A stretch of DNA of 64,000 nt from Patescibacteria group bacterium (lineage in GTDB: Bacteria; Patescibacteriota; Patescibacteriia; Magasanikbacterales; UBA922), in the NCBI GenBank assembly GCA_028687045.1, contig JAQUAW010000001.1, positions 2,034 to 66,033 of the forward strand, given 5' to 3'. The position numbers and the translations under genes are program-made. The notes beneath the pieces are model-generated. The model searched no databases. It worked only from the letters and a program-made list of their open reading frames with translations, and was not told where the DNA came from. Positions 4,043 to 56,989 of the stretch are shown here, one piece after another (the stretch's first letter is position 1; every line of letters starts with the position of its first letter).

Positions 4043-4864
4043 TCCCTTTTTTAATTATACTTTTCTAATTTATGAATTTATAATTTTGAATTTTGAAACA
4101 ATTTTCAATTTAATAATTTTGAAAAATATTTTTGATAAATTTCAAAAAAAATTATAAAATGATATTTTATTTAAAATAAAATTTTAGATAAATAATCAAA
4201 AGTACTTGCTAGTTGGATGTTTAGAATTGGATTTCTGATTACTACAATAGTCATGGGGATTTTTTAATAAAAAAGATGATACACTATACCTTGAGAAATA
4301 AAGCCCTGTTTTGTAGTGTCGTAAAATATAGATAATAATGGCTAAGTAGAGCCAAAAAGAGGAGATTGTTGTACTACCGAGTAGGTATCTATAATAAGCT
4401 AATAATTACTATAAAATAGCTGTAAAAAAATAGAACAATTATGTATTAAATATTTTTTTGTTAATTTTAAAGTTACATAAGTATTGGATATTAATGTTAG
4501 ATGTAGGGTACTAATGGCTGATGAAACATTTAAATATTATCTTATATTATAGTAGTATGTCGCATAAGGTATATTGTGCGACATTGCTTTAAACTAGTAT
4601 AAATGCTACCCAACTATACTTTTTTGTGTCTCTTCCCTATCAATGTTTTTGTTGCAAACAAAATATATCTAATATATTATTTTACCTTAAATAAAAAATA
4701 GACAATTATATTATTGTGTCTATTTTTTTTATAAATTTGCAGCGACGGTCGTGTGAAGTTTGGTATGGGTAACTAAACTTCTCACGACCGTCTATAGCGT
4801 CCCCTACTCTAGTAGAAAACGCTCTACATATTATATAACTACGTTTCTGAAATCTTGTCAACTG

Positions 4865-29476: not shown

Positions 29477-30676
29477 TTATTTAAGTAAATTTGGATACTT
29501 TTGAAAAAACATCTCCAAAACCTGACCATTTAGTCTGTAAACTTGATTTTCCTCGTCTTTCGTTACCCACATAGTATCTAGCAAATTTTGCATTATGCCT
29601 TCATTACTTAATGCAAAAGGCAGTTTTTTTCCCTGCATTATTTTTTTCAAAACATCCCTTTCTTCATCATTAAAAGTTTTTTGAAAAACTTGTCTATAAT
29701 GGTTAAATATGTTGTCAAAGTTTCTCTCTATTCTTTCAATGACATCTTCCATATCACTAGCCGTATAATTTAATTTCTTTACGTCAACAGAACAAAATTC
29801 AGCCAAAAATTCATTGACAAAATAATTTATTTCTCTAGCTTTACCACCGGTAAACTCGTAAATTTTTTCTATGGCATCAGGGGCAAAAGTAAGATAGCTC
29901 CCTTCCAAGTCTTTTTCTACTAATAATCTTGTCTCTTCCAAAGTAAGTGGTCTAATATAAAATTCTTGATAATCCTCACCAAATATTTTTTGTAACATCT
30001 TATTATTTTCTATATCTACAAAATGCAATACCAAAGCTATCTGCAGTTCATCCAAATTACCTAAACTTGCGATATATCTCAAAAATCCCTCATTATCTAT
30101 AACATTGACTACCTCATCAATGGCTATAAAACATTTAATATTATTATCTTTTAGATATTGATTTAAATACTCAAACGGTGTTTGTCCACTTTCTGTAATT
30201 TTTTCTCTTATTTCCTCAATACTAGCTTGTTTACCTTGTTCAATCTCTTTTTGACGAATAAATTTACAAACTTCATACAATCCAAATCGTTTTTTAAAAT
30301 AGTCTAAACTACTATCTGAAAGAATCGGAATAGCGTCAAACTTGATAGAATTATCTGCACCAAAGTCATTGACCAAGGAATTCAACATACTACTTTTGCC
30401 AATCCTTTTGAGACCTCTTATTGCTACATTTTGTCCAGCGAGTAAAGTATCTTGAATTTTCTTTTCTTGATCCAGACGAACAATACTTCTTTCTATACTG
30501 GCTTCACGTGTAATTCTTTCTCTTGTTTTTTCAAGATGAACTTCAAAAATTTCAGGTGATAATCTTGCTCTTACTTCTTCTAAAGTCAGTTCTTTTTCTT
30601 GTTGCTCAGTACTTTCATTCATTGTTAGTTTTTCTTCCTCTGGCACAAAAGGAAGATAATTATCACCTGTACCCAT
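29477..30676 (-). CDS. AAA+/P-loop ATPase of unknown function
   Basis: Walker A IRGLKRIGKSSML and Walker B CFIAIDEV. 399 aa. Confidence 0.55.
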   Translation of the reverse strand: MGTGDNYLPFVPEEEKLTMNESTEQQEKELTLEEVRARLSPEIFEVHLEKTRERITREASIERSIVRLDQEKKIQDTLLAGQNVAIRGLKRIGKSSMLNSLVNDFGADNSIKFDAIPILSDSSLDYFKKRFGLYEVCKFIRQKEIEQGKQASIEEIREKITESGQTPFEYLNQYLKDNNIKCFIAIDEVVNVIDNEGFLRYIASLGNLDELQIALVLHFVDIENNKMLQKIFGEDYQEFYIRPLTLEETRLLVEKDLEGSYLTFAPDAIEKIYEFTGGKAREINYFVNEFLAEFCSVDVKKLNYTASDMEDVIERIERNFDNIFNHYRQVFQKTFNDEERDVLKKIMQGKKLPFALSNEGIMQNLLDTMWVTKDEENQVYRLNGQVLEMFFQKYPNLLK

Positions 30677-30733: not shown

Positions 30734-32518
30734 TCAAGCCATAAAACCACCAACTTGAATATCCCACAAATTACGATAAATACCATTTTTTTTCTTCAAA
30801 AGTACTTTGTGTGAACCTTGTTCAAGAATTCCACCTTGTTCTATCACCAAAATTCTATTTGAATTCATAATAGTCGAAAGTCTGTGTGCGACGATAATGA
30901 CAGTCTTACCTTTCATCAGATTTCCCAAAGCATCTTGGATAAGCTTTTCTGACTTAGAATCTAAACTAGAAGTTGCTTCGTCCAAAATCAAAATTGGGGA
31001 ATTTTTTAGTATTGCTCGAGCTATAGCTACGCGCTGTCTTTCACCGCCCGAAAGCTTGATACCTCTTTCTCCTACCAAAGTATTGTAACCATCTGCCAAA
31101 TTCAAAATAAAATCATGAGCATTGGCTTGCTTGGCAACAGACATCACTTCTTCATCACTAGCATCTGGTTTAGCATAACGAATATTTTCCATGATACTTC
31201 TATGAAAAAGCATCGGGTCTTGTGGCACAAGACTGACATTTTGCCATAAACTTTCTTGCGTACACTTGGCAATGTTTTGTCCATCTATCAGAATTTTTCC
31301 ACCAGAAATATCATGTTGACGTAAAAGCAATTTTACAATAGTAGACTTCCCTGCACCTGAGGAACCAACGAGGGCTATTTTTTCTTGAGGCTTGATTACC
31401 AAATCCATTTTTTTGATTATTTCTCTAGTTTTGTTGTAAGCAAAAGAAACTTCTTTGAATTCTATTTTACCTGTCGTAACTTGTAATTTTTTGGCATTTT
31501 TGACATCTTGTATGTCATAAGGCATATTTAGTATCTCAGTCATTTCTTCGGCGTCAGCCAGTGATTCATAAAAATCTCTAATTACACGACCAAAGCCAAA
31601 AAACTTTTCAAAAATAATAATAAGATAAGATTGAATCAAAATAAAATCACCAACTGTAATACTACCAGCTTGCCAAACTTTGACAGCATAAAACAACATC
31701 ACGATTTCCAACAAAATCATCAACATCCATTGTATACCATCAAACCAAGTGGAAATGTCCCAAGAAAATTTTCTTATTTTCCTTAGATCTTCTGTTTTTT
31801 GTTCAAATTCTTTACACTCTCTACCATAACCAACCAACAACTTTACATTGGTATTATTAGTAAAAGAATCAGCCAAAAAAGCTCCAACCTTGGAATCTAG
31901 CTGACTTCTCTCAAAATCATATTTTAATTTGAATTTACTAAAAAAGTAACTAGTCAAAACAAAGATGAATATCCAAGAAATTATTATTAAAGCAAAAAAC
32001 TTGTTACGACTAAATAAGACAATAGAAATAAGTGTAACATTGATAATGATAGGCAAAAGATCCCAAATTATTCTATCTGAAATTCTATCAAAAGCTTGTA
32101 CAAATCTACCAACTTTTTTTACCAGAGAACCTACGAAGCTGTTGTTGAAAAAAGAAAAAGAATGTTTGTGAACTTTGGAAAAACAAGCATCATTCAAATC
32201 TTTTAGACTGTCTGTGCTAAACTTTATGTACAAAAAAGCCATGACACGGATAAAAAACCACTGCAAAATTTTTATACCCAAAATAATAAATAATGTGGTA
32301 TAGAGAATCTCAACATTAGGATTAGTAGACAAGACATCAAAAAACTTTTTGTACCAATAAGGAGCCAATATTGAAAAAGCATCACCAATCAATAACAACA
32401 AAAACATAGACATAAAGCTCCATTTGTATTTCCAAGCTTGTTGCCAATAAATTTTCAAAGTTATTTTGGTATTATTTTTCATAAGTAATTTATTTTTTTT
32501 GCAATAAAAAAACGTCAA
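30734..32518 (-). CDS. ABC exporter with fused permease and ATPase (MsbA-like half transporter)
   Basis: Six-TM N-terminal half, then GSSGAGKST Walker A, LSGGERQRVAIARAIL signature and ILILDEATS Walker B. Confidence 0.85.
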   Translation of the reverse strand: MTFFYCKKNKLLMKNNTKITLKIYWQQAWKYKWSFMSMFLLLLIGDAFSILAPYWYKKFFDVLSTNPNVEILYTTLFIILGIKILQWFFIRVMAFLYIKFSTDSLKDLNDACFSKVHKHSFSFFNNSFVGSLVKKVGRFVQAFDRISDRIIWDLLPIIINVTLISIVLFSRNKFFALIIISWIFIFVLTSYFFSKFKLKYDFERSQLDSKVGAFLADSFTNNTNVKLLVGYGRECKEFEQKTEDLRKIRKFSWDISTWFDGIQWMLMILLEIVMLFYAVKVWQAGSITVGDFILIQSYLIIIFEKFFGFGRVIRDFYESLADAEEMTEILNMPYDIQDVKNAKKLQVTTGKIEFKEVSFAYNKTREIIKKMDLVIKPQEKIALVGSSGAGKSTIVKLLLRQHDISGGKILIDGQNIAKCTQESLWQNVSLVPQDPMLFHRSIMENIRYAKPDASDEEVMSVAKQANAHDFILNLADGYNTLVGERGIKLSGGERQRVAIARAILKNSPILILDEATSSLDSKSEKLIQDALGNLMKGKTVIIVAHRLSTIMNSNRILVIEQGGILEQGSHKVLLKKKNGIYRNLWDIQVGGFMA

Positions 32519-33236
32519 TAGTATTATACACCTTTTGACGTTTTTTTAAAATAGTTTTTTTAAAAAATAAAAAACAATAATAAAAAATAATTATTGTTTA
32601 TCTTTAAAATCTTATAATTATTATTTACAAAATAAATTATAAAAAATTCAAATTACAATAATTAACAAATCTTTTGTCAAAATCAATCTAAATTTTTGTT
32701 TCAAAAAACCAAAACTTAGATTGATTGAGACGACGTACCTCCTTTGTTAAAGTAATCTCAATCCTCCTTTTGTTCTTCTTTTTTTTCGATGAGCCCTCAC
32801 AATGGGGGCTTTACCGAAGAATGGTGTTGAATGGCTCTGCCAAACACCACCACAAAGCTGAACCGAGCTACAAGAGGATGATCGGAACCCTCCACTTTAA
32901 ACTCGTATATACCAGACGTAACAAAAATAAACAGAAAATTATGATGCACTTCTTCGACTACTCGGCACTGTGGCCGCTTAGCCAAAAAGTGAATCATATA
33001 CATCAAAACGCCTTCATGCGTTTTGATGTGTTGACCACAAAAAGTTGGAAGAAAAGAGATACTACGTAGGTGATAAAGTCTGCAAACAGTCTTGATATCT
33101 CCACTGTTCACAGCACCAACACACCTCCCTAAAAAAGCTGTATTGCGCCGCCACGACTCTGTCGCGGCAGCTAAAAATAGAAACAAAGCCAAGAAAGGCA
33201 CTGTTGCCAAAAGATCCACCTGGACCTCCTAGAAAT

Positions 33237-33458
33237 GCGACTTCACAACGTGAGAACTTCTCACGCCATTCAGTCGCTGGTTTCTATCTAAAAAATAGAC
33301 AAAAATCAGCAACTGAATTTTTTGGCACGCACAAAATCATACTCTCCGACATATCCACTGTCAATTACTATATCCTTGACAGAGTGTAATTTGTCGTTCT
33401 ATTTGTAAAAGTTCTCTATACAAAAAAATACACCTAATTTAATAGATGTATTTTTTTT
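33237..33458. repeat. Copy 1 of a 210-220-bp direct repeat. It contains a GC-rich nested hairpin, a degenerate TTGACA palindrome and a terminal hairpin with a T run.
   Basis: About 90% identical to 33650..33866. Starts GCGACTTCACAACGTGAGAACTTCTCACGCCATTCAGTCGC. Confidence 0.7.
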
Positions 33459-33649
33459 GCCCCTCCTTTCCTCCTTTGTGTATGTGAATGGTTGGGCAAT
33501 TACCTCAAGCGGATCCCCAATAGCGGGAATCTCCACCTGAAGCCCCTGATTTCCGGCGGCTGTTTAGCCAGCCGGAAACCATCAACAACACAATGACGGG
33601 AGACACTCCCGCCAAAAACTCCAAAAAGCTCATGTGAGCCTCCGAAACG

Positions 33650-33866
33650 GCGACTTCGCAACGTGAGTACTTCCCACGCCATTCAGTCGCTAGTTTCTAT
33701 CTAAAAAATAGACAAAAATCAGCAACTGAATTTTTTAGCACGCACAAAATAATACTCTTTGACATATCCACTGTCAATTACTTTACCCTTGACAAATTTC
33801 AATTTGTCGTTCTATTTGTAAAAGTTATTTATATAAAAAAATACACCTATTTTCTAGGTGTATTTT
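33650..33866. repeat. Copy 2 of the same direct repeat. It contains the perfect palindrome CTTGACAAATTTCAATTTGTCG and the terminator TACACCTAttttcTAGGTGTATTTT.
   Basis: Aligns to copy 1 with a 413-bp period. Confidence 0.7.
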
Positions 33867-33885
33867 AATTAATTTATTTTAATTT

Positions 33886-35160
33886 CTAAACAAGATAACG
33901 TAAGAAAATATAGACAGTACACATCACCAAAGCTACAAAAGTCAAAGGTAATGCCATCTTCATATACTCCCAAAAACCAATACCATGACCTTCTTTACTA
34001 GCAATACCACTTACTACAACATTGGCTGAAGCACCAACCAAGGTCGCATTTCCACCAATATCAGCACCAAGAGCCAATGCCCACCAAATTGGTGCCAAAG
34101 GTAGTCCTGCAATAGTTCCTAAATCTTTGACAAGTGGGATCATAGTAGCTACAAATGGAATATTATCAATTACAGCTGAAAATATAGCTGAACCCCACAA
34201 AACACTCAAAGTAGTAGCTGTCATGTTTCCACCAGTAAGATTTAGCAAACCTTCAGCCAACATACGAATAGCGCCAACTTCTTCTAGAGCTACAACCAAG
34301 ATGAAAAGTCCCATGAAGAAAAATATTGTAGTCCATTCTACTTCTTTCAAATGTTCTTCTGGATCATGCATGGTCAAAAGCAACATAAGAGCAGCACCAC
34401 CAAGAGCGATAGTAGCACCTTCTAAATGAGTTACACTATGGGTAAAAAATCCAACCAAAACTATAGCCAAGACAAATAATGCTTTTTTTAACAATTTTAC
34501 GTCAGACAAAGCTTCTCTTGGATTAAATTTTGCGATAGTAGCTTGTGCTTCTGCAGTAGCCACAAGTTGCTTGCGATAAATGAAAACCAAAAGTGCAATA
34601 GTAACAATAGAAACAAGAACAGAAATAGGTCCAAGATTAACCAAAAAATCATTGAAAGTAAGACCACTAGCACTACCAATAAGAATGTTTGGCGGATCTC
34701 CGATAAGAGTAGCTGTACCACCAATATTGGCCAACAAAATAGCACCTATAAGAAATGGCTTAGGGTGAATTTTCAAATTATGAGCAACCACAAAAGTGAC
34801 TGGTATCATAAGAAGTACAGTAGTCACATTGTCGAGCAAAGCAGAAAAAACAGCAACAATAGTTAGTAATAATATATATATTTTTACAGGGTTACCCTTA
34901 CCAACTTTGGTAGCCCAGATAGCCACATATTGAAACATACCACTGTGTTTGGCTATTCCCACAATAATCATCATACCAATCAAAAGGCCTAGAGTATTGA
35001 AGTCAATCCCCTCAATTGCTTTTTCTTGTGTCACAATACCAAGCAAAACCATCAATCCCGCACCAGCCATAGCAATGACAGTACGATGAATTTTTTCAGA
35101 GATGATAATAGCGTAAGTAGTAATAAAGACAACAAGTGTAATCCAAAAAAAGATTCCCAT
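33886..35160 (-). CDS. ArsB/NhaD-superfamily ion transporter permease
   Basis: 424 aa, about 10-12 TM helices, with a duplicated internal-repeat architecture typical of the ArsB/NhaD/CitMHS group. Confidence 0.65.
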   Translation of the reverse strand: MGIFFWITLVVFITTYAIIISEKIHRTVIAMAGAGLMVLLGIVTQEKAIEGIDFNTLGLLIGMMIIVGIAKHSGMFQYVAIWATKVGKGNPVKIYILLLTIVAVFSALLDNVTTVLLMIPVTFVVAHNLKIHPKPFLIGAILLANIGGTATLIGDPPNILIGSASGLTFNDFLVNLGPISVLVSIVTIALLVFIYRKQLVATAEAQATIAKFNPREALSDVKLLKKALFVLAIVLVGFFTHSVTHLEGATIALGGAALMLLLTMHDPEEHLKEVEWTTIFFFMGLFILVVALEEVGAIRMLAEGLLNLTGGNMTATTLSVLWGSAIFSAVIDNIPFVATMIPLVKDLGTIAGLPLAPIWWALALGADIGGNATLVGASANVVVSGIASKEGHGIGFWEYMKMALPLTFVALVMCTVYIFLRYLV

Positions 35161-35187: not shown

Positions 35188-35658
35188 TTAATGAATTCCG
35201 AGTACACGAGCGATAGCTTTTTTGATATCAGTACGATTGATATAGCCAACCAATTTTTCTTCAGCATCGACTACTGGAATTTGACGAATCTTGAATTCAG
35301 AAAGCATAGTAGCAGCTTCCATCAAAGTATGACTTTCTTTGATAGTGTGAACCTCTTTGGTCATAAATTTGGTAATAGGTTCATCAGCAACTTCTTTGAT
35401 TCTAACACTAAATTCTTCAGCCGCCTCAAAAGAAGCTAAATGTTTGTCTTCTTCCAAATAATCTGGAACTACATATTGAATCAAATCCATACTAGACAAA
35501 ATCCCTTTTACATATTTTTCATCGTCAACGACAACCACTCCATTGGTACGACCGTCAACCATTTTTTGCAATGCTTCTCTAAAAGTAGCATTAATATTTA
35601 CTGTTGTCACAACATCTTGCATGTTGTTTTTGACAAGATATTTTTCTTGTTCTGTCAT
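35188..35658 (-). CDS. Tandem CBS-domain protein
   Basis: 156 aa with two CBS-like motifs (GVVVVDDEKYVKGILS; IPVVDAEEKLVGYINRTD). Sits directly upstream of the permease. Confidence 0.7.
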   Translation of the reverse strand: MTEQEKYLVKNNMQDVVTTVNINATFREALQKMVDGRTNGVVVVDDEKYVKGILSSMDLIQYVVPDYLEEDKHLASFEAAEEFSVRIKEVADEPITKFMTKEVHTIKESHTLMEAATMLSEFKIRQIPVVDAEEKLVGYINRTDIKKAIARVLGIH

Positions 35659-50157: not shown

Positions 50158-50192
50158 AATTTATTTATTTTGATTTCCATAATTAATGGTGT

Positions 50193-50278
50193 TCTCCCCC
50201 TTGTAGGGGGAGCTAGAGGGGGTTAATGACAATTTAATCAACGTCGAACCCCACCTGACCTCCCCTACAAGGGGAGGA
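50193..50278. repeat. GC-rich composite hairpin element between atpZ and atpB
   Basis: CTCCCCCttgtaGGGGGAG and its inverted twin CCTCCCCtacaaGGGGAGG flank a third hairpin, AGGGGGTT…AACCCCAC. Confidence 0.55.
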
Positions 50279-50297
50279 ACTCTCTAAAAAGTTTTAT

Positions 50298-50558
50298 TTA
50301 TTTTTTTTCGTCAAGTTTCTTATACTCTTCCCCATACAACTTAGCTTTCTTATAAATCATTTTAGTAGAAAGAAAGGCAGCCAAGAGAAAAGCTGAGATA
50401 GTAAACCAAGGAGCGTGTCCATATTTACCTTCAAGCCACTGACCAATTAAGACAAAAACTATAATAGGTACAGCAATTATGGCTCCAAAATCACCCACAA
50501 TACGTAGACCCAACATCATATATTTTCTATCTTTTGGATCTTCTGGTAAAAGAGACAT
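50298..50558 (-). CDS. AtpZ/AtpI-like small membrane protein encoded upstream of atpB
   Basis: 86 aa with two TM helices, in the leader position of the atp operon. Confidence 0.5.
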   Translation of the reverse strand: MSLLPEDPKDRKYMMLGLRIVGDFGAIIAVPIIVFVLIGQWLEGKYGHAPWFTISAFLLAAFLSTKMIYKKAKLYGEEYKKLDEKK

Positions 50559-50727
50559 ATTTTTTGAAAGAATGTCTAGAATAAAAACGGTGCTATTATA
50601 ACTGTTTTAACCCATTTAGTCAATTATTTAGCAAATTTGTTGTGAATAATAATAACTAGACAAAATTTGGCCAAAAAATAACACGCCATCAGTTTAGCAA
50701 AAACAAATACGATGTCAATCTGATTAC

Positions 50728-50752
50728 CCTTGACAAATTGGAATTTGTTGTT
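50728..50752. promoter_or_regulatory. Operator-like palindrome CCTTGACAAATTggAATTTGTTG. It overlaps a -35-like TTGACA and lies upstream of tatD.
   Basis: Near-identical to the site at 33788..33809. Confidence 0.45.
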
Positions 50753-50842
50753 CTAAAACAAATAAGCGTTATTTACTCTTAAATAACAAAGAATCTCAAA
50801 ATTACCGAGATTCTTTTTTATTTTATAAATTTTTCAATCAAA

Positions 50843-51830: not shown

Positions 51831-52437
51831 TTAAATTCTCAGCGTAATCTACAGTAGAATGAAGCAATTGCAAAGCCTTTGGCAAAAGTGGAATAAAGAT
51901 AGAGGCAATATCACTCAAAATTGGAGCGATTATTGAATTTGCCAAACTTGTCATTATTTTTTCAGAAAGCGGAATTCTTTCAATAAAATATACAAACAAG
52001 CCAAGACTTAGAATACCTTCAATAATACCCAAACCTAAACCAAACAAACGATTGAAAGTTTTGACAAAAGGAACGATAGAAACTATCTTAAAAATTCTAT
52101 CAATAAACCAAAACAAAACACCAACCAAACTAGTAATAATAAAAAAAGCCAAAACAAACATCAAAACCTTACTAGTATTTACTCCCCAACCTGTTACAGA
52201 AATAAGCCAATTAGCCAAATCCTGATAATATCTACCGGCCAAATAAACACCTAAGAAAGTACCAATGAGTGATCCAAATGCACGGACAAATCCAGACCAA
52301 AAACCATAAATACCAAAACTACCTATAATTATAAGAAAAATGATATCAGTGACATTCATACATATATAATAAAAATTATGCTTATATTTTACTATAAAAA
52401 AAATAAAAAGTAAATAAAAAAGCCCAATATTGGGCAA
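51823..52437 (-). CDS. cvpA: CvpA-family membrane protein. The start may be an internal Met (MNVTDIIF…).
   Basis: Four TM helices with GxxxG-rich segments typical of colicin V production protein. Confidence 0.55.
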   Translation of the reverse strand: MPNIGLFYLLFIFFIVKYKHNFYYICMNVTDIIFLIIIGSFGIYGFWSGFVRAFGSLIGTFLGVYLAGRYYQDLANWLISVTGWGVNTSKVLMFVLAFFIITSLVGVLFWFIDRIFKIVSIVPFVKTFNRLFGLGLGIIEGILSLGLFVYFIERIPLSEKIMTSLANSIIAPILSDIASIFIPLLPKALQLLHSTVDYAENLIR

Positions 52438-52454
52438 TTATTTTTGTGGTTTGT

Positions 52455-52602
52455 GAGGAGAACGGTGGGACTCACGTTTGTCTGTCGACTACGGGTATTG
52501 ACGCGAAGGAGGCACGTCAGCACCGCACGTAGAGCAAACTACCAGTCCATCTAGGGAGCAAACTCCCCAGACTATGGCCGCGAGCACTCCACCGTTCCCC
52601 TC
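52455..52602. ncRNA. Candidate structured ncRNA of about 150 nt, identity unknown. It has a long terminal helix and two internal hairpins. The strand is uncertain.
   Basis: About 60% GC in a roughly 30% GC genome. The 5' GAGGAGAACGGTGGGACTCACG pairs with the 3' CGCGAGCACTCCACCGTTCCCCTC. Internal hairpins are CTACG..TGACG..CGTCA..CGTAG and GGGAGcaaaCTCCC. Confidence 0.45.
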
Positions 52603-52662
52603 AACCACAAACTACGATATTTTAGTTAATTTGTCAATAGTTAGTTATAAAAGCAGTTCAAT

Positions 52663-54183
52663 CTATTTCTCTAATCTTACAAACAAAATATCTGCTTTTT
52701 TGATTTTTTTTCCTTCTTGCAATAAACCCCATTTTTTTTCTTCAGCAAAATTGTCTGAAACTTCCAAATTCAATTGAGACAAAATCTTTTCTGCAGTTCC
52801 AGGAATAATTGGTACCAGTGATAAAGCCAAATGTCGTAGACCTTCTACCAATTGATACAATAAAACAGAGATATTTTCACCAGTCTTCACTTTTTCCCAA
52901 GGTTTTTCTTCAGAAATTTTCAAATCTATCTTAGAAACCAAGGAATTGATATTTTTTATTACTTCTTCAAAATCAAATTTAGCAAAAGCACTTTCATAAT
53001 CTAACCAAAATTTTTCTGTTCCAAAAATATCTGTTGCAAGGGCTGGTACCTTATTTTCTTGATATTTTTCAATCATAGTCAAAATACGAGAAGTAAGATT
53101 ACCAATACCATTTACTAGATGAGCGGTGTAGAAATTTTCAAAACGTGATACTGAAAAATCACCATCTTTAGTTGAAGAAACTGCTCCAAGCAAATAATAA
53201 CGTACAGCATCTGTTCCATATTTAGTAACAACATCTTCTGGATTCACGACATTTCCTAGAGATTTACTCATCTTCTCTCCTTCAGTTGTCAAATAACCAT
53301 GTATAAATTCTGTTGTTGGCAAATCCAAACCTGCAGAAATAAGCATAGCCGGCCAGTAAAGAACATGAAATTTGCCAATACCTTTGCCAATTACATGCAC
53401 TACTTCCCTATTTTCTTGATCATTTTGTTCCCAATATTTTGCAAACAAACTTTCATCACTACTACCAAAATTTAAACCTGTTATATAATTTGACAAAGCA
53501 TCCACCCAAACATACATAATTTGACTTTCATCACCTGGAACTTTTACCCCCCAATTGTGAGCACGCTCTGCACTACGAGAAATACTAAAATCTTCCAATC
53601 CTCTATCTATAAAAGCAAGCCACTCATTTTTACGAAATTCTGGAGTAATATTTATAATGTTTTTTTCTAACAATTCTTTCAATTTTTCTTGGTAATTGGA
53701 AAGTTTGAAAAACCAATTTTCTTCTTCAACCACTTCCGGTACAGTCTTATGTTCCAAACATTTACCATCCTCGAGTTCTTCTTCTTTATAAAAAGCTTCA
53801 CAACCAACGCAATACAAACCTTTGTATTTTCTTTTTTCTAAATCTTCTTTCTTGAAATTATTCCACAATTTTTGGGCACCTTTCATATGTCTATCTTCTG
53901 TAGTACGAATGAAGCCATCAAAAGAAATATTCAAAATATTTTTGAAATTATAAAATTCTTTGTAGTATTCATCAACAAATTCTTGAACACCCTTGCCAGC
54001 TTTTTCAGCTGCTTGTACATTTTTGAGAGAGTTTTCATCAGTACCGGACAAAAAGAAAACATCTTTACCCACAAGTCTATGATAACGAGCTATTGCATCT
54101 GTTTGAATATATTCAAGAGCATGTCCAATATGAGGTTTGCCATTGATATAAGGAATAGCGGTTGAAATATAATACTTATTCAT
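52663..54183 (-). CDS. metG: Methionyl-tRNA synthetase
   Basis: HIGH (PHIGHALE) and KMSKS motifs. Confidence 0.9.
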   Translation of the reverse strand: MNKYYISTAIPYINGKPHIGHALEYIQTDAIARYHRLVGKDVFFLSGTDENSLKNVQAAEKAGKGVQEFVDEYYKEFYNFKNILNISFDGFIRTTEDRHMKGAQKLWNNFKKEDLEKRKYKGLYCVGCEAFYKEEELEDGKCLEHKTVPEVVEEENWFFKLSNYQEKLKELLEKNIINITPEFRKNEWLAFIDRGLEDFSISRSAERAHNWGVKVPGDESQIMYVWVDALSNYITGLNFGSSDESLFAKYWEQNDQENREVVHVIGKGIGKFHVLYWPAMLISAGLDLPTTEFIHGYLTTEGEKMSKSLGNVVNPEDVVTKYGTDAVRYYLLGAVSSTKDGDFSVSRFENFYTAHLVNGIGNLTSRILTMIEKYQENKVPALATDIFGTEKFWLDYESAFAKFDFEEVIKNINSLVSKIDLKISEEKPWEKVKTGENISVLLYQLVEGLRHLALSLVPIIPGTAEKILSQLNLEVSDNFAEEKKWGLLQEGKKIKKADILFVRLEK

Positions 54184-54298
54184 ATTTATTTTTTGGATTA
54201 TTAGAATAACATAAAAAATATTTGTGTCTATTCGTTAGTATTTGTGTTATTCTTAAACTTTTTTAATTCACAAAACGTAAAATTTAAAATTCACTTTT

Positions 54299-54979
54299 TT
54301 ATTTAGAAATGATAACAACGAATTCTCCTTTATCCTTCACCTGCATATCACCAAGTCCACCTACTGTCCCACGATAAATCGTTTCAAATTTTTTGGTAAG
54401 TTCCCGACAAATGCAAATCTTAGTTTCTGGATTCAAAAACTCTTGCATACTTGCCACGGCTTTGAGAATTCTGTGATTTGATTCATAAAAACAAACTGTC
54501 TGTTCAATATTTGCTAAATTTTTAAAATAAGTTTGTCTACCATTTTTTTGTGGAGGAAAACCAAGGAAAACAAATTTGTCAGTAGGAAATCCAGAAATAG
54601 AAAGTGCTGTCACTACAGCAGAAACACCAGGAATTGGAATAATAGTTAATTGGTTACTTAGTTTATTAGTTAATTCACTAATTAAAAGATTACCTGGATC
54701 ACTTATACCCGGTGTTCCTGCATCAGTAACTAATGCTAAATTTTTACCTTCTTCAAGCAATTCTTTTATTTCAGAAACTTTTCTTTCGTCACTATGTTGG
54801 TGATAACTAATTGTCTTAGTGGTGATTTCATAATGATTCAACAATTTTTGAGTGACTCTAGTATCTTCACACAAAACAAAATCAACGCTTTTCAAAGTTT
54901 CCAAAGCGCGCAAAGTAATATCACCTAAGTTTCCAATCGGTGTAGCGACAATATATAATTTTCCAAAATCAGTCGTCAT
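54299..54979 (-). CDS. rsmI: 16S rRNA (cytidine1402-2'-O)-methyltransferase RsmI (tetrapyrrole-methylase fold)
   Basis: LYIVATPIGNLGDITLRALETL…LCEDTR. Confidence 0.8.
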   Translation of the reverse strand: MTTDFGKLYIVATPIGNLGDITLRALETLKSVDFVLCEDTRVTQKLLNHYEITTKTISYHQHSDERKVSEIKELLEEGKNLALVTDAGTPGISDPGNLLISELTNKLSNQLTIIPIPGVSAVVTALSISGFPTDKFVFLGFPPQKNGRQTYFKNLANIEQTVCFYESNHRILKAVASMQEFLNPETKICICRELTKKFETIYRGTVGGLGDMQVKDKGEFVVIISK

Positions 54980-55232
54980 AATCCTTATTTCTTAATTCTT
55001 AGTTCTTATATAATAACAAATCTAGCCAAAAAATCAAACTATTGACAAAAAAACGAATTTAAAGTAGATTGACTAATCAATTTTGACTAAACAAGGTCAA
55101 ATTTTGTCTACCAAAGATGCTGTCAAACTATTTAACATTATCTTTGGCAGACCAAAAGTCTGCAAACAGACCTGAGAAGGAACGAGCTGGAAGTACCAGA
55201 ACGTCTCTTCTCACCTGCACCTTGGGAGAGGT

Positions 55233-55460
55233 GTGGAAATAAGACGAACAAAGGCCGACACCTACATCAGTGTAGGTTCGGCCATCGGCGCTATAGCGGG
55301 CGCCGTCTTCGGCCTCGAGGCCGGAGGAAACATGGGTGCAGGAATCTTCTGCACCGTGGTCGGCTCCGCACTTGGAGTCGTCCTTGGACTGGTCGCTATG
55401 CCAGTCCTAAAACTAACCGCTGCGGCGTTTGTCAGATCTGACAAACGCCGCGATCTCTAA
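55233..55460 (+). CDS. Small Gly-zipper membrane protein encoded in a GC-rich island. Alternate start codon; the gene model is uncertain.
   Basis: GSAIGAIAGAVFGLEAGGNMGAGIFCTVVGSALGVVLGLVAM carries GxxxG repeats. Local GC is near 58%. It is followed by two hairpin terminators. Confidence 0.4.
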   Translation: MEIRRTKADTYISVGSAIGAIAGAVFGLEAGGNMGAGIFCTVVGSALGVVLGLVAMPVLKLTAAAFVRSDKRRDL

Positions 55461-55510
55461 CAGCCGTGGGCAGAAGCTAAAAACTTCTTTGCCCACGGCC
55501 ATCCAATCTT
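55413..55510 (+). terminator. Tandem hairpins ending in T8 downstream of the Gly-zipper ORF
   Basis: GCGGCGTTTGTCAGATCTGACAAACGCCGC is a perfect palindrome. It is followed by CCGTGGGCA…TGCCCACGG and then ATCTTGccaaaaCAAGATTTTTTTT. Confidence 0.6.
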
Positions 55511-55585
55511 GCCAAAACAAGATTTTTTTTATTTTTTATGCTATAATATGAAAACTAAATAGAAATTAATGTCTAAAATAAAAAT

Positions 55586-56989
55586 ATGAAAAAACCTGTA
55601 GTTTATATAGCTCTACTGAGCTTATTACTTCCCCAAATTTCTTTAGCAACTGAATTCAACCCTAATTTTATTATTACTGATGAAGCTTTGCAAAACAAAG
55701 ATACCATGACAGTCTCTGATATTCAGATTTTTTTGGAAGAAAAAAATAGTGCTTTAGCTGACTTCATTACTGAATACCAAGATGGATCAAGACAAAAAGC
55801 TTCTAGCATCATCTATAATTCAGCTCAAAAATATAATATCAATCCCAAATATTTACTTGTAAAACTACAAAAAGAACAAAGTCTAATTACCGAAAAAAAT
55901 CCTAGCCAAAAACAATTAGATTGGGCTACAGGCTACGCTGTATGCGACAGTTGTAGTAAAGATGATCCAAGTATTCAAGAATACAAAGGTTTTGCCAAAC
56001 AAGTAGACAAAGCTGCGGATGTAATGCGTGGTTATTATGAAAAAGTAAGTTCTCAAGCTTGGATAAAAAGAGCTGGACAAACTTATAATATAGACGGACA
56101 AGATATTACACCAGCCACCAATGCTACAGCGTTTCTTTATACCTATACTCCACATTTGCATGGCAACCAAAATTTTTGGACAATCTGGCAATCTTGGTTT
56201 GAACAAAGCTATCCAGATGGTACCTTAGCCAAAACATCTACTGATACTACAGTATATTTGATTCAAAATGGCAAAAAAAGAAAAATATCTAATATGACTT
56301 CTTTGATTACCCGCTTTGATCCAAAACTTATAATTACCATAACAAAATCAGAACTAGACAAATTAGAAGAAGGAATAGAAATCAAATTACCAAACTATGC
56401 TATTGTTAGTTCCCCTTCTGGTTATTACTTGCTTGATTATGATTACAAAAGAAAATTTGATAGTTATGATGTTGTCAGAGCTATAGGTTACAATCCTGCC
56501 GAAATTATGGAAGTCACAGATACTGAATTATCTGAATATTTACCTGGCAAAAATATTAGTGCCGATGTAAAAGATTTAACAGGTCGTCTAGTGCAATTGA
56601 AAGGAACCAACAATTTTTATTATATAAAAGATGACACTTATGCTCCAATACTTGATAAAAAAATAATACAATTGAACTTCCCAAATTTAACTATTGATAA
56701 AGTAGACAATAGTGCTTTCAACAACTTAAACAAAACAGAACCACTATTACCAAAAAATGGTACTATCATTGGTGTAGAAGGTGAAGCTACTATCTATGTT
56801 ATGGAAAATGGTAAAAAAAGACATATCAACAATGAAGAGACTTTCTTACAATATGGCTATAATTGGAAAAATGTTGTCTGGATAAATTTTGGAGCAGCCC
56901 TAATCATTCCAGAAGGTCAGCCCTTGCAATTAATCGAACAACTTGATAATTTAGATGTAGTCACAACTTCGGACGTATCAAGTCTTTAA
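55586..56989 (+). CDS. Secreted protein with two copies of a roughly 35-aa repeat shared with the amidase at 4865..5683. Possibly a cell-wall-binding or murein-hydrolase-associated protein.
   Basis: Signal peptide MKKPVVYIALLSLLLPQISLA. Repeats are TTVYLIQNGKKRKISNMTS and ATIYVMENGKKRHINNEETFLQYGYNWKNV. Confidence 0.5.
   Translation: MKKPVVYIALLSLLLPQISLATEFNPNFIITDEALQNKDTMTVSDIQIFLEEKNSALADFITEYQDGSRQKASSIIYNSAQKYNINPKYLLVKLQKEQSLITEKNPSQKQLDWATGYAVCDSCSKDDPSIQEYKGFAKQVDKAADVMRGYYEKVSSQAWIKRAGQTYNIDGQDITPATNATAFLYTYTPHLHGNQNFWTIWQSWFEQSYPDGTLAKTSTDTTVYLIQNGKKRKISNMTSLITRFDPKLIITITKSELDKLEEGIEIKLPNYAIVSSPSGYYLLDYDYKRKFDSYDVVRAIGYNPAEIMEVTDTELSEYLPGKNISADVKDLTGRLVQLKGTNNFYYIKDDTYAPILDKKIIQLNFPNLTIDKVDNSAFNNLNKTEPLLPKNGTIIGVEGEATIYVMENGKKRHINNEETFLQYGYNWKNVVWINFGAALIIPEGQPLQLIEQLDNLDVVTTSDVSSL

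What the first reader, a model, noticed from the sequence alone, without database searches (positions are those of the whole stretch)
32740..33236. Roughly 500-bp GC-rich island (near 50% GC against a roughly 30% background) with no credible ORF and dense hairpins
Seen: composition shifts abruptly after the AT-rich promoter region of the ABC exporter. The two overlapping antisense ORFs (114 aa and 140 aa) have no recognisable domain. Several strong hairpins are present, including GATTGAGA/TCTCAATC, AGCCC/GGGCT and GCCGCCACGAC/GTCGCGGC.
Inference: this is either a structured ncRNA or a decayed fragment of foreign, higher-GC DNA. I could not find RNase P, tmRNA or SRP signature motifs.
Basis: partly seen in the sequence, partly recalled or inferred. 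Interest (0 to 1): 0.55.

Follow-up and report, generated by a model that had tools for sequence, protein, structure and literature searches.

The report
Hidden NTF2-like gene, hairpin-rich mRNA
The GC-rich "island" is not a non-coding RNA or dead foreign DNA but an overlooked, intact small gene for an NTF2-fold (DUF4440) protein in a Patescibacteria genome. Its messenger RNA is unusually GC-rich and packed with hairpins, which is mildly interesting but otherwise ordinary.

Summary
The island is real but weaker than described. GC is 43%, not about 50%, against 32% for the window, and all quoted hairpins exist. The claim of "no credible ORF" is wrong. The 140-aa minus-strand ORF (33219-32797) has a consensus-like sigma70 promoter and an AGGAGG Shine-Dalgarno sequence (SD). 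It keeps all 17 invariant residues of the DUF4440/CaMKII_AD/SgcJ-EcaC (NTF2-like) family. On its own it gets 106 significant HMMER hits in 1.84 billion proteins, and its model has an NTF2-like fold. Orthologues occupy the same slot upstream of the ABC exporter in other Magasanikbacteria. One passes the curated Pfam and NCBIfam cut-offs. One lineage has a 5'-truncated copy and one has none. The gene is native, hypervariable (27-36% aa identity where neighbours are 71-85%) and GC-rich in every lineage. The "structured RNA" intuition is partly right. The mRNA folds far better than chance (z -5.6 for the CDS, -11 for the transcript, -5.2 against synonymous-codon shuffles). It shows compensatory changes against the nearest lineage, but no fold is conserved across deep lineages and there is no Rfam match. 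A 204-nt promoter and leader module is duplicated upstream, in front of a 42-codon hydrophobic ORF. Verdict: a new, divergent member of a known protein family with an unusually structured mRNA.

The parts
32797..33219 (-). CDS of a 140-aa protein (GTG start at 33219, TGA stop at 32799-32797). Residues 1-22 are a hydrophobic helix and residues about 23-138 are a DUF4440/CaMKII_AD/SnoaL_3 (NTF2-like) domain.
   Evidence: ORF list. A 97%-identical protein is called on a 474-kb JGI contig, and there is a DUF4440 hit at E = 1.8e-5 in 5.8e9 sequences. About 1000 family members are found with the profile. All 17 invariant family residues are kept. phmmer alone gives 106 hits at E <= 1e-3 and 15 at E <= 1e-10. 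The AlphaFold2 (AF2) model has pLDDT 73.5 and its top 50 Foldseek hits are all NTF2-like folds.
33163..33213 (-). Codons 3-19 (LLATVPFLALFLFLAAA): the predicted single membrane-spanning or anchor helix. Only this lineage has it.
   Evidence: Kyte-Doolittle 17-residue mean is 2.48. The flanks are MD| and |TESWRRN. The helix is absent from the orthologues in L095 and L100. Five of the 6 substitutions against strain L082 cluster in codons 11-33.
33336..33364 (-). Sigma70-type promoter of the island gene: -35 TTGACA (33364-33359), 17-nt spacer, -10 TATGAT (33341-33336). The inferred transcription start site (TSS) is near 33330.
   Evidence: 11/12 consensus match, one of the two best sites in 32450-33950. 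It lies inside direct repeat D1.
33365..33400 (-). Conserved promoter-upstream module (TAGAAC ... TTGTCAAGG ... ATTGACAGTGG).
   Evidence: It aligns with the upstream regions of the orthologues in L100 and L095, with unit 2, and with the atp-operon promoter at about 50700-50790.
33220..33330 (-). 5' leader of about 110 nt. It holds the 23-bp hairpin P1 (33318-33268), hairpin P2 (33267-33247) and the SD AGGAGG (33230-33225). The SD is paired with U-rich codons 2-4, with the start codon in the loop.
   Evidence: Fold z = -7.1. The same design occurs in unit 2 with compensatory differences (UCC/GGA against CUC/GAG). The transcribed leader is about 95% identical between the two units.
33000..33029 (-). 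12-bp hairpin inside the CDS (ACAUCAAAACGC-AUGAAG-GCGUUUUGAUGU), overlapping the conserved protein motif I-K-T-H-E-G-V.
   Evidence: Four of 12 pairs changed on both sides in L002 (CAUUCGGACGC/GCGUCCGAAUG) with pairing kept.
32723..32763 (-). 3'UTR hairpin H1 (GAUUGAGA ... UCUCAAUC) with a 25-nt loop carrying the purine motif ACAAAGGAGG. The upstream AAAAGGAGGA (32772-32762) is predicted to pair with the CU-rich tract 33052-33047.
   Evidence: Folds. The 3' element as a whole is 94% identical between the window and L002 (85 aligned nt, 5 differences), against 83-84% in the flanking genes, P = 0.004. The motif recurs in L100 and L095.
32677..32726 (-). Intrinsic-terminator-like, AT-rich 16-17-bp hairpin followed by UUUU. 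It marks the end of the transcript.
   Evidence: Inverted repeat I4. Folds. Conserved in L002, L100 and L095.
33237..33440 (-). Direct repeat D1, copy 1. It contains the terminator of unit 2, the upstream module, the promoter and the leader.
   Evidence: 204 nt, 91% identical to 33650-33853.
33650..33853 (-). Direct repeat D1, copy 2: the same module in front of unit 2. Its promoter has -35 at 33777-33772 and -10 TATTAT at 33754-33749.
33505..33633 (-). Unit 2 payload: a 42-codon ORF (MSFLEFLAGVSPVIVLLMVSGWLNSRRKSGASGGDSRYWGSA). Its N-terminal hydrophobic helix resembles that of the 140-aa protein. GC is 53.5%. Coding status is unproven.
   Evidence: ORF list. It is called as a gene in L082. 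It has no family hits. The CDS folds at z = -6.0 (dinucleotide shuffles) and -4.8 (synonymous shuffles), and the full unit at z = -10.0.
33422..33457 (-). Terminator hairpin of unit 2.
   Evidence: Inverted repeat I22. Fold.

Best explanation
The island is the coding region of an intact, previously overlooked small gene on the minus strand of a Candidatus Magasanikbacteria-like (Patescibacteria/CPR) genome. The gene encodes a 140-aa protein. Its residues 23-138 form an NTF2-like cone domain of the DUF4440 / CaMKII-association-domain / SgcJ-EcaC (TIGR02246) family. Its first 22 residues are a lineage-specific hydrophobic helix. By the positive-inside rule this helix would tether the domain to the cytoplasmic face of the membrane; that step is inferred.

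The gene is transcribed from its own near-consensus sigma70 promoter and ends at an AT-rich intrinsic terminator. The transcript of about 650 nt is exceptionally structured:
- a 23-bp 5' hairpin, a likely stabiliser;
- a G.U-rich hairpin that masks the SD, a likely translation throttle;
- a chain of near-perfect hairpins through the CDS;
- a 3'UTR purine motif that pairs back to a CU-rich tract.

The high GC content is a maintained property of the gene and provides the stable stems. It is not a trace of recent foreign origin. The gene sits in a variable slot between a CitMHS transporter and an ABC exporter and evolves very fast.

Shown: the gene, its family and fold, synteny, excess RNA structure, and compensatory changes.
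Inferred: the function of the mRNA structure (stability and/or translational control), the membrane topology, and the biochemical role. The role is presumably small-molecule binding or catalysis in the NTF2 pocket, lined by the invariant Y49, Y74, H92, Y105, R119 and HHSS132-135.
For: Coding and family:
- A 97%-identical 140-aa protein is called on a 474-kb contig. A DUF4440 protein matches at E = 1.8e-5 (38% identity, 79% coverage) in 5.8e9 sequences.
- A profile search gives 997 family members.
- The ORF keeps all 17 invariant columns of a 57-sequence alignment.
- The family profile built from that alignment hits PDB 3h51, a CaMKII_AD-like protein, at E = 4.6e-13.
- The ORF alone gives 106 hits at E <= 1e-3 in 1.84e9 proteins, and these carry CaMKII_AD, SnoaL_3 and DUF4440 domains.
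- The AF2 model has pLDDT 73.5 and pTM 0.67 with H-H-H-E4 topology. Its top 50 Foldseek PDB hits are all NTF2-like.

Native and syntenic:
- Orthologues lie upstream of the ABC exporter in L095-L098 and L099-L101.
- The L100 orthologue passes curated cut-offs: CaMKII_AD 45.1 > 22.1 bits and TIGR02246 34.2 > 33.95 bits.
- The promoter module is shared with the atp operon.
- GC is 44-51% and GC3 is 40-62% in every lineage, against GC3 of 0.21 +/- 0.03 in the host.

Expression signals:
- The promoter matches the consensus at 11/12 positions. AGGAGG lies 5 nt upstream of GTG. A terminator follows.

RNA structure:
- z = -5.6 for the CDS and -11.2 for the transcript against dinucleotide shuffles.
- z = -5.2 against synonymous-codon shuffles that preserve the protein and the codon usage. 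Controls are about 0.
- An unrelated DUF4440 gene gives z = -0.2.
- 95 consensus pairs with L002 show 0 broken pairs and 11 double compensatory changes, against 1-3 in slid controls.
- 13-15 of these pairs are G.U, so the structure works only on the sense strand.
Against: - The window ORF itself is below the Pfam gathering score (14.4 against 22.1 bits) and has no NCBIfam hit.
- Its codon usage is very atypical for the genome: GC3 z = +6 and synonymous-codon score z of about -6.
- Codon-position bias of substitutions against L002 is weak (29/17/38, compared with 39/14/146 in the neighbouring gene). L002 is a truncated copy, which blurs this test.
- There are no expression data (RNA-seq, proteomics).
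- The exact 140-aa product is not on record for the source assembly.
- The AF2 confidence is only moderate.
- The structure is not positionally conserved between deep lineages, so a specific RNA function is unproven.
- Template-switch mutation at quasi-palindromes could mimic compensatory evolution.
Confidence: 0.8

Rival explanations
1. Dual-function or RNA-first element. The selected function would be the hairpin-rich RNA itself, for example as a regulatory or sponge RNA, or as a very long-lived transcript. The NTF2-like ORF would be secondary or on its way to being lost.
For: The structure is extreme: transcript z = -11.2, unit 2 z = -10.0. It persists under synonymous-codon shuffling. The 5'-truncated L002 copy, which cannot make a complete NTF2 domain and has lost the promoter, still folds at z = -5.7 to -10.3 and keeps 95 shared pairs with compensatory changes. 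The 3' element is more conserved than the flanking genes (94% against 83-84%, P = 0.004). The strong promoter is shared with the atp operon.
Against: All 17 family-invariant residues and a good SD and start codon are retained. No fold is shared between deep lineages: 0-9 shared pairs, no better than shifted controls. There is no Rfam family. L094 lacks the element entirely, so it is dispensable.
Confidence: 0.13
2. Pure structured non-coding RNA, with the 140-codon ORF arising by chance in GC-rich sequence.
For: Strong folding z-scores and compensatory pairs. A GC-rich island in an AT-rich genome is a classic ncRNA signature. Pfam finds only a sub-threshold hit.
Against: The ORF alone gets 106 significant protein hits, 15 of them at E <= 1e-10. 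All invariant residues are retained and the model has an NTF2 fold. Syntenic orthologues pass curated family cut-offs. There is no Rfam hit and no conserved fold across lineages.
Confidence: 0.02
3. Decayed fragment or pseudogene of horizontally acquired, higher-GC DNA.
For: GC3 is 0.40 against 0.21 +/- 0.03 (z = +6) and codon usage is atypical. The sister lineage L002 carries only the 3' 85 codons, with no promoter. L094 has lost the element. The closest non-orthologous relatives are unplaced metagenomic proteins.
Against: In the window lineage the ORF is full length with no frameshift or stop and with all invariant residues. The gene occupies the same slot in lineages whose ABC exporter is only 71% identical, and it is GC-rich in all of them. 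The composition is therefore maintained and not un-ameliorated. It is driven by a native promoter module.
Confidence: 0.05
4. Part of a peptide toxin or bacteriocin module. The 42-aa hydrophobic peptide would be the toxin or bacteriocin, or a type I toxin. The fast-evolving DUF4440 protein would be its immunity factor, and the adjacent ABC exporter would be the export pump.
For: A small hydrophobic ORF and a DUF4440 gene share one duplicated promoter and leader module, next to an ABC exporter. The DUF4440 gene is hypervariable, as immunity proteins are. Highly structured mRNAs with a masked SD resemble type I toxin mRNAs. As precedent, the DUF4440 protein MctD, together with MctE, confers immunity to microcin Mcc1229 in a cluster that has an ABC exporter (PMC8853679).
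Against: The ABC exporter has no C39 peptidase domain. It is conserved with or without the DUF4440 gene; L094 has the exporter only. The 42-aa ORF exists only in the window lineage, while the DUF4440 gene is older. The ORF has no double-glycine leader and no hit in Pfam, NCBIfam or PADLOC. No antisense RNA promoter better than 9/12 was found.
Confidence: 0.07

Closest known systems
DUF4440 / CaMKII_AD / SnoaL_3 proteins of the NTF2-like superfamily (NCBIfam TIGR02246, SgcJ/EcaC family; solved example PDB 3h51)
   Same: The domain length is about 115 aa. All 17 family-invariant residues are present (N38, Y49, PTF58-60, Y74, H92, GIY103-105, ARF118-120, HSS133-135, P138). The model shows the alpha+beta cone fold. 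Sequence hits are significant. The syntenic orthologue passes curated thresholds.
   Different: Typical members are 127-128-aa soluble proteins. This one has an extra 22-residue hydrophobic N-terminus, and it is the most divergent copy, sub-threshold in Pfam. Its gene is GC-rich, hairpin-dense and hypervariable, unlike an ordinary family member (L083, z = -0.2). Its closest non-orthologous relatives carry 2-6 tandem copies of the domain.
MctD, the DUF4440 protein of the microcin Mcc1229 cluster in E. coli (PMC8853679)
   Same: A DUF4440 protein encoded beside an ABC exporter and a small peptide gene. An immunity role would fit the fast evolution seen here.
   Different: Only the Pfam family is shared. 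No MctE (DUF2164), cupin or cysteine-rich precursor is present. The exporter lacks a peptidase domain, and the gene pairing is not conserved. This is an analogy from the literature, not a test.
Highly structured mRNAs with a masked SD: type I toxin mRNAs (hok, aapA1-like) and fourU-type RNA thermometers
   Same: The SD is paired with a U-rich stretch through G.U/A.U pairs. There is a stable 5' hairpin and a long-range 5'/3' pairing, and the ORFs are small and hydrophobic at the N-terminus. The comparison rests on my own knowledge of these systems.
   Different: There is no Rfam match. No antitoxin RNA was identified. The main product is a 140-aa globular-domain protein, not a toxin of fewer than 60 aa. 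Temperature or processing dependence is untested.
GC-rich intergenic islands used to discover structured ncRNAs in AT-rich genomes (for example OLE, GOLLD, ROOL, raiA)
   Same: A GC-rich, strongly folding stretch of about 500 nt with no annotated gene in a 32% GC genome. This is exactly the signature such screens use.
   Different: None of those families match. The region encodes a conserved protein, and the fold is not conserved across lineages. It is the classic false positive of such screens, an unannotated small ORF, although with real excess structure.

Membership tests
NTF2-like superfamily: DUF4440 / CaMKII_AD / SnoaL_3 (TIGR02246 SgcJ/EcaC) | Statistically significant sequence similarity to family members over the whole domain | tested here: met
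   E = 1.8e-5 to a DUF4440 protein in 5.8e9 sequences. phmmer with the ORF alone gives 106 hits at E <= 1e-3 and 15 at E <= 1e-10, covering residues about 30-138. These hits carry the Pfam domains.
NTF2-like superfamily: DUF4440 / CaMKII_AD / SnoaL_3 (TIGR02246 SgcJ/EcaC) | Score above the curated Pfam or NCBIfam cut-off | tested here: inconclusive
   The window ORF scores 14.4 bits for CaMKII_AD against a cut-off of 22.1 (E = 0.042) and has no NCBIfam hit. The syntenic orthologue in L100 passes: CaMKII_AD 45.1, SnoaL_3 34.7, DUF4440 30.7 and TIGR02246 34.2 > 33.95. This is an operational threshold, and the window copy is the most diverged.
NTF2-like superfamily: DUF4440 / CaMKII_AD / SnoaL_3 (TIGR02246 SgcJ/EcaC) | Conservation of the family's invariant residues | tested here: met
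   All 17 invariant columns of a 57-sequence alignment are kept in the window ORF. One nearly invariant Trp is Cys33 in the window but Trp in strain L082.
NTF2-like superfamily: DUF4440 / CaMKII_AD / SnoaL_3 (TIGR02246 SgcJ/EcaC) | Alpha+beta cone fold (three helices packed on a curved antiparallel sheet) | tested here: met
   The AF2 model has pLDDT 73.5 and pTM 0.67, with helices 3-39, 42-50 and 68-81 and four strands. Its top 50 Foldseek PDB matches are all NTF2-like (ketosteroid isomerase, SnoaL and others), with TM 0.5-0.65. The family profile hits PDB 3h51 at E = 4.6e-13.
Structured non-coding RNA (any Rfam family) | Covariance-model match at or above the gathering score | tested here: not met
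   There are 0 matches in the whole window at gathering thresholds. Only chance-level matches (best E 0.06-0.1, snoRNA and miRNA models) appear in 32400-34100.
Structured non-coding RNA (any Rfam family) | A secondary structure conserved in position across diverged homologues, with covariation | tested here: inconclusive
   Window against L002: 95 shared pairs, 11 double compensatory changes, none broken, and 48 of 113 MFE pairs shared against <= 4 in shifted controls. Between deep lineages (window, L095, L100), 0-9 pairs are shared, no better than controls. Only two informative lineages exist.
Structured non-coding RNA (any Rfam family) | Absence of a conserved protein-coding frame | tested here: not met
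   A conserved, homologous ORF spans 85% of the island.
Type I toxin-antitoxin locus | Toxin ORF shorter than about 60 aa with one transmembrane helix | tested here: inconclusive
   This is not true of the island gene (140 aa with a globular domain). The neighbouring unit 2 has a 42-codon ORF with a hydrophobic helix (KD 2.32), but its translation is unproven and it has no family hit.
Type I toxin-antitoxin locus | An antisense or divergent small RNA antitoxin that base-pairs with the toxin mRNA | not testable with these tools
   This needs RNA-seq. The promoter scan finds only weak (9/12) plus-strand candidates at 32725-32753 and 32918-32945.
Microcin/bacteriocin cluster with DUF4440 immunity (Mcc1229-like) | ABC exporter with an N-terminal C39 peptidase domain and a precursor peptide with a double-glycine leader | tested here: not met
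   The exporter has only ABC_membrane and ABC_tran domains. The 42-aa ORF begins with a hydrophobic helix and has no leader-like N-terminus.
Microcin/bacteriocin cluster with DUF4440 immunity (Mcc1229-like) | Conserved co-occurrence of the DUF4440 gene with the exporter and the peptide gene | tested here: not met
   L094 keeps the exporter without the DUF4440 gene. The peptide ORF is found only in the window lineage.
RNA thermometer (fourU/ROSE-like) | SD sequestered by a weak U-rich or G.U-rich helix that melts with temperature | not testable with these tools
   The pairing of AGGAGG with UCUUUU is predicted in both units. Melting behaviour needs experiments. There is no Rfam thermometer match.

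The most novel reading that the evidence does not exclude
In these Patescibacteria a class of small genes may be maintained as GC-rich, hairpin-saturated messages. The class would include this DUF4440 gene, the 42-codon unit beside it, and the 75-codon glycine-rich ORF at 55233-55460. Under this reading, selection acts on RNA structure at synonymous and even non-synonymous sites and helps drive the extreme protein divergence. This would be an RNA-encoded expression or stability programme, or a dual RNA/protein function, peculiar to AT-rich, reduced CPR genomes. The conserved promoter and terminator flanks would act as a cassette slot in which the coding part turns over.
Probability: 0.2. Interest if true: 0.6.

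Novelty: new member of a known kind. Interest (0 to 1): 0.3.

Why it matters
There are three practical points.

1. The case is a clean example of how a GC-rich, strongly folding "island" in an AT-rich genome can be an unannotated small gene and not an ncRNA. Gene callers and Pfam both nearly miss it, because its codon usage is atypical and its sequence is highly diverged.

2. It documents a protein-coding message in a CPR bacterium whose secondary structure is as extreme as that of bona fide structured RNAs. The transcript has z = -11, the excess survives synonymous-codon shuffling, and there are compensatory changes against a sister lineage. If this is general, mRNA structure may be an under-appreciated layer of expression control or mRNA longevity in these slow-growing, RNase-poor symbionts.

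3. The locus is a hypervariable slot with conserved flanks. It shows gene loss, truncation, N-terminal anchor gain and tandem module duplication among close relatives. This makes it useful for studying the micro-evolution of Patescibacteria accessory genes.

None of this overturns current understanding.

Tried and rejected
- Rfam at gathering thresholds over the whole window, and at E <= 10 over 32400-34100 and 52350-55600, gave nothing credible. tRNA and tmRNA scans found none.
- Exact look-up of the 140-aa product found it not on record.
- Viral-contig scans for the 3' element (0 hits) and the leader 16-mer (5 hits) gave only bare 16-18-mers with no extension, so they are chance matches.
- The metagenome scan with the 20-mer from the 3' element returned only the two lineages already known.
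- PDB phmmer with the ORF alone gave only a chance hit.
- PADLOC defence models found nothing for the ORF, its orthologue, the 42-aa ORF or neighbouring unknown genes.
- A recent-HGT explanation for the GC content was rejected, because syntenic orthologues in lineages down to 71% ABC identity are all GC-rich and use a native promoter module.
- A single conserved ncRNA fold was rejected, because structure is not positionally shared between deep lineages.
- A DGR, retron or integron-cassette reading was considered from the repeats and conserved flanks and dropped. No reverse transcriptase or integrase was seen among the neighbouring genes I scanned, the repeat is a promoter and leader and not a template/variable repeat pair, and each unit has its own promoter. 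I did not scan the whole window for these enzymes.
- The plus-strand 114-aa ORF has no hits and runs antisense to the real gene.
- A literature search for CPR GC-rich ncRNAs found no papers.
Full report
**Observation**

The window is 31.8% GC. GC falls to 13.5% at 32500-32699 and then jumps to 42-47%. The stated island, 32740-33236, has 43.1% GC. That is z = +2.8 and the top 0.9% of 497-nt windows, which is clearly atypical but not "near 50%".

Hairpin density is far beyond chance:
- The minus strand folds at -178.8 kcal/mol against -135.1 +/- 6.0 for dinucleotide-preserving shuffles, z = -7.3.
- The plus strand gives z = -5.2.
- A scan of the whole window in 400-nt steps has a background of z = -0.8 +/- 1.8. 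The region 32.8-34.0 kb contributes three of the six most structured windows.

There is no Rfam match at gathering thresholds anywhere in the 64 kb. Nothing better than chance appears at E <= 10 around the island, and no tRNA or tmRNA was found.

**Anatomy**

Read on the minus strand, the island is the downstream unit of a two-unit tandem arrangement. A 204-nt direct repeat (33237-33440 and 33650-33853, 91% identical) precedes two different GC-rich segments. Each repeat copy contains the following:
- the terminator hairpin of the preceding transcript;
- a conserved upstream motif;
- a near-consensus sigma70 promoter (TTGACA-17-TATGAT or TATTAT). These two promoters are the two best sites in the region at 11/12.
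- a leader of about 110 nt, with a 23-bp hairpin, a second hairpin and then a Shine-Dalgarno (SD) sequence.

In unit 1, AGGAGG lies 5 nt upstream of GTG at 33219, which opens the 140-codon ORF ending at 32797. In unit 2, GGAGG lies 5 nt upstream of ATG at 33633, which opens a 42-codon ORF. Both predicted products begin with a 17-residue hydrophobic helix followed by Trp and basic residues. In both units the SD is predicted to pair with U-rich codons 2-4, and the two units differ by compensatory changes. Unit 1 ends in a 3'UTR hairpin carrying an ACAAAGGAGG loop, followed by a 16-17-bp AT-rich terminator hairpin.

**The ORF is a real gene**

Pfam alone gives only a sub-threshold CaMKII_AD hit (E = 0.042), which is why the domain was missed. 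Other evidence is strong:
- Against 5.8 billion proteins, the ORF finds a 97%-identical 140-aa protein on a 474-kb JGI contig. It also finds an Ignavibacteriaceae DUF4440 protein at E = 1.8e-5, 38% identity over 79% of the query. The alignment runs through the whole domain.
- A three-sequence profile recovers 997 members of a family of 127-128-aa proteins annotated NTF2 family or DUF4440.
- In a 57-sequence alignment the window ORF keeps all 17 invariant columns.
- That family profile hits PDB 3h51, a CaMKII-association-domain-like protein, at E = 4.6e-13.
- An exhaustive phmmer search with the ORF alone gives 106 hits at E <= 1e-3 and 15 at E <= 1e-10 in 1.84 billion representatives. The best are proteins with 2-6 tandem CaMKII_AD/SnoaL_3/DUF4440 domains, annotated as TIGR02246 family.
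- The AlphaFold2 (AF2) model (pLDDT 73.5, pTM 0.67) has three helices and a four-stranded sheet. Its 50 best Foldseek matches in the PDB are all NTF2-like folds.

**Origin and evolution**

The flanking CitMHS transporter places the window in Patescibacteria, closest to a Candidatus Magasanikbacteria MAG at 90% aa identity. I used the downstream ABC exporter as an anchor and fetched orthologous loci. These give five states of the slot:
- A near-identical strain (L082). It has 6 substitutions in 1.4 kb, five of them in codons 11-33.
- L002 (ABC exporter 86% identical). Only the last 85 codons and the 3' element survive, and the promoter is gone.
- L094 (88%). It has no element at all.
- L095-L098 (85%). 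These carry an orthologue of about 114 aa without the hydrophobic helix.
- L099-L101 (71%). These carry a 123-aa orthologue that passes the curated cut-offs: CaMKII_AD 45.1 > 22.1 bits and TIGR02246 34.2 > 33.95 bits.

The promoter-upstream module and the terminator are recognisably conserved in all lineages that have the gene. The module also precedes the atpZ-atpB operon in the window.

The gene is therefore native and old. It is also hypervariable: orthologues share only 27-36% aa identity, and 52% with the L002 fragment, where the ABC exporter shares 71-86%. It is GC-rich in every lineage, with GC 44-51% and GC3 40-62% against a host GC3 of 0.21 +/- 0.03. This rules out simple lack of amelioration after a recent transfer. 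The hydrophobic N-terminus, the long leader and unit 2 are innovations of the window lineage.

**RNA structure**

- The CDS folds at z = -5.6 and the full transcript at z = -11.2. Unit 2 folds at z = -10.0.
- With a stricter null that shuffles synonymous codons, and so preserves protein, codon usage and GC3, the CDS still gives z = -5.2. The L002 fragment gives -5.2, L100 gives -2.9 and L095 gives -1.7.
- Under the same null, an unrelated DUF4440 gene, the CitMHS gene and atpZ give -0.4, +0.45 and -0.6.
- The window and L002 are only 65% identical at the nucleotide level in the CDS. Between them, RNAalifold finds 95 shared pairs with none broken. Eleven changed on both sides, against 1-3 in slid controls, and 16 changed on one side with pairing kept, nearly all through G.U wobble.
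- One 12-bp hairpin (33029-33000) has four consecutive compensatory pairs.
- Thirteen to 15 of the pairs are G.U, so the structure works only on the sense strand.
- In a codon-aware alignment, the deep lineages share no more pairs than shifted controls.

The trait that is maintained is therefore "GC-rich and hairpin-dense", not one specific fold. With only two informative lineages, and a structure derived from those same sequences, the covariation evidence is suggestive and not conclusive. Template-switch mutation at quasi-palindromes is an alternative source of apparent compensation.

**Mechanism (inferred)**

- A strong, native promoter produces a transcript of about 650 nt.
- The 5' hairpin and the chain of stems probably protect the transcript from single-strand-specific RNases, in a genome whose other messages are AU-rich and unstructured.
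- The weak G.U-rich helix over the SD probably limits or conditions translation.
- The 3' purine motif is predicted to pair with a CU-rich tract in the CDS and close a domain of about 280 nt. This pairing is conserved with L002.
- The product is an NTF2-cone protein tethered by an N-terminal helix. Its biochemical role is unknown.
- The rapid divergence, and a precedent in which a DUF4440 protein contributes to microcin immunity (PMC8853679), make an immunity-like or ligand-binding role conceivable. The features that define such clusters were not found here.

**Verdict**

The finding is a false-positive ncRNA candidate. It resolves into a new, very divergent member of a known protein family. 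The added curiosity is an exceptionally structured, compositionally maintained mRNA in a variable genomic slot.

Noticed in passing
window 55116-55536 (+): This is the most structured stretch of the window (z = -12.1; 51% GC, peaking at 63%) and has no Rfam hit. It contains a 75-codon ORF (GTG 55233-55460) that is glycine/alanine-rich with two hydrophobic helices. The ORF has only sub-threshold Pfam hits (DUF456, DUF6223). Its CDS folds at z = -8.2 even against synonymous-codon shuffles. It looks like a second example of a GC-rich, hairpin-saturated small-protein message.
   Followed up: partly
window 52425-52640 (-): A GC-rich (about 50%) transcript candidate of about 165-190 nt lies behind a TTGACA promoter. 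It has a closing stem of about 23 bp and an internal multi-branch structure (z = -7.6 to -7.9), followed by a terminator-like hairpin. It has no Rfam match even at E <= 1. It is a candidate unclassified ncRNA; a divergent 6S or SRP-like RNA is possible.
   Followed up: partly
window 4401-4800: This AT-rich (26% GC) intergenic stretch has a very strong folding excess (z = -7.2 on the minus strand). It includes long palindromes, for example CAGCGACGGTCGTGTGAAGTTTGG...CTTCTCACGACCGTC at about 4740-4790.
   Followed up: no
window 50690-50790 (-) and 50298-50558 (-): The promoter-upstream module of the island gene (TAGAAC...AAATT..AATTTGTCAAGGGTAA...ATTGACA, containing the palindrome ACAAATT-NN-AATTTGT) recurs in front of an AtpZ-like ORF (Pfam ATPase_gene1, E = 4e-11) and atpB. 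It may be a shared regulator-binding site or UP element.
   Followed up: partly
window 50190-50290 (-): GC-rich palindromes (CCCCTTGTAGGGGAGG ... CCCCCTACAAGGGGGAG) lie between the atpZ-like ORF and atpB.
   Followed up: no
window 32505-32548: A 17-nt-arm hairpin (AAAAAAACGTCAA...TTGACGTTTTTTT) sits immediately upstream of the ABC exporter start codon, with a TATAAT hexamer in its loop. It could be an attenuator, a bidirectional terminator, or a promoter occluded by structure.
   Followed up: no
window 29477-30676 (-) compared with L082 7487-7875: The window carries a 399-aa ATPase_2/AAA-like gene between the ABC exporter and the UvrD/PD-(D/E)XK helicase. It is absent from the 99.6%-identical strain L082, which has about 390 nt and a 50-aa ORF there. 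L095 and L002 have a 250-aa ORF at that place. This is a second variable slot, and PADLOC finds no hit for the ATPase.
   Followed up: partly
window 33121-33188 compared with L082: Five of the six substitutions separating the window from strain L082 over 1.4 kb fall in codons 11-33 of the DUF4440 gene (A11V, L14 synonymous, L16V, C33W); P is about 3e-5 for such clustering. Residue 33 is Trp in nearly the whole family, so the window strain carries the unusual allele.
   Followed up: partly
L095 3051-4421; L002 7786-8298: The slot between the DUF4440 gene and the ABC exporter holds different unknown genes in different lineages: a 456-aa ORF with no Pfam or PADLOC hit in L095-L098, and an ORF of about 150-170 aa in L002.
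   Followed up: partly
window 35188-35658 (-): The CBS-domain gene two genes upstream also shows a moderate folding excess (z = -2.3 against dinucleotide shuffles, -3.3 against synonymous-codon shuffles), unlike the transporter between them.
   Followed up: no
L001 (Logan SRR22315507 contig): The only public short-read contig with the identical transporter ends 179 nt after it, inside the first copy of the 204-nt repeat. The tandem repeat breaks assemblies, which may be one reason the locus is poorly represented.
   Followed up: no
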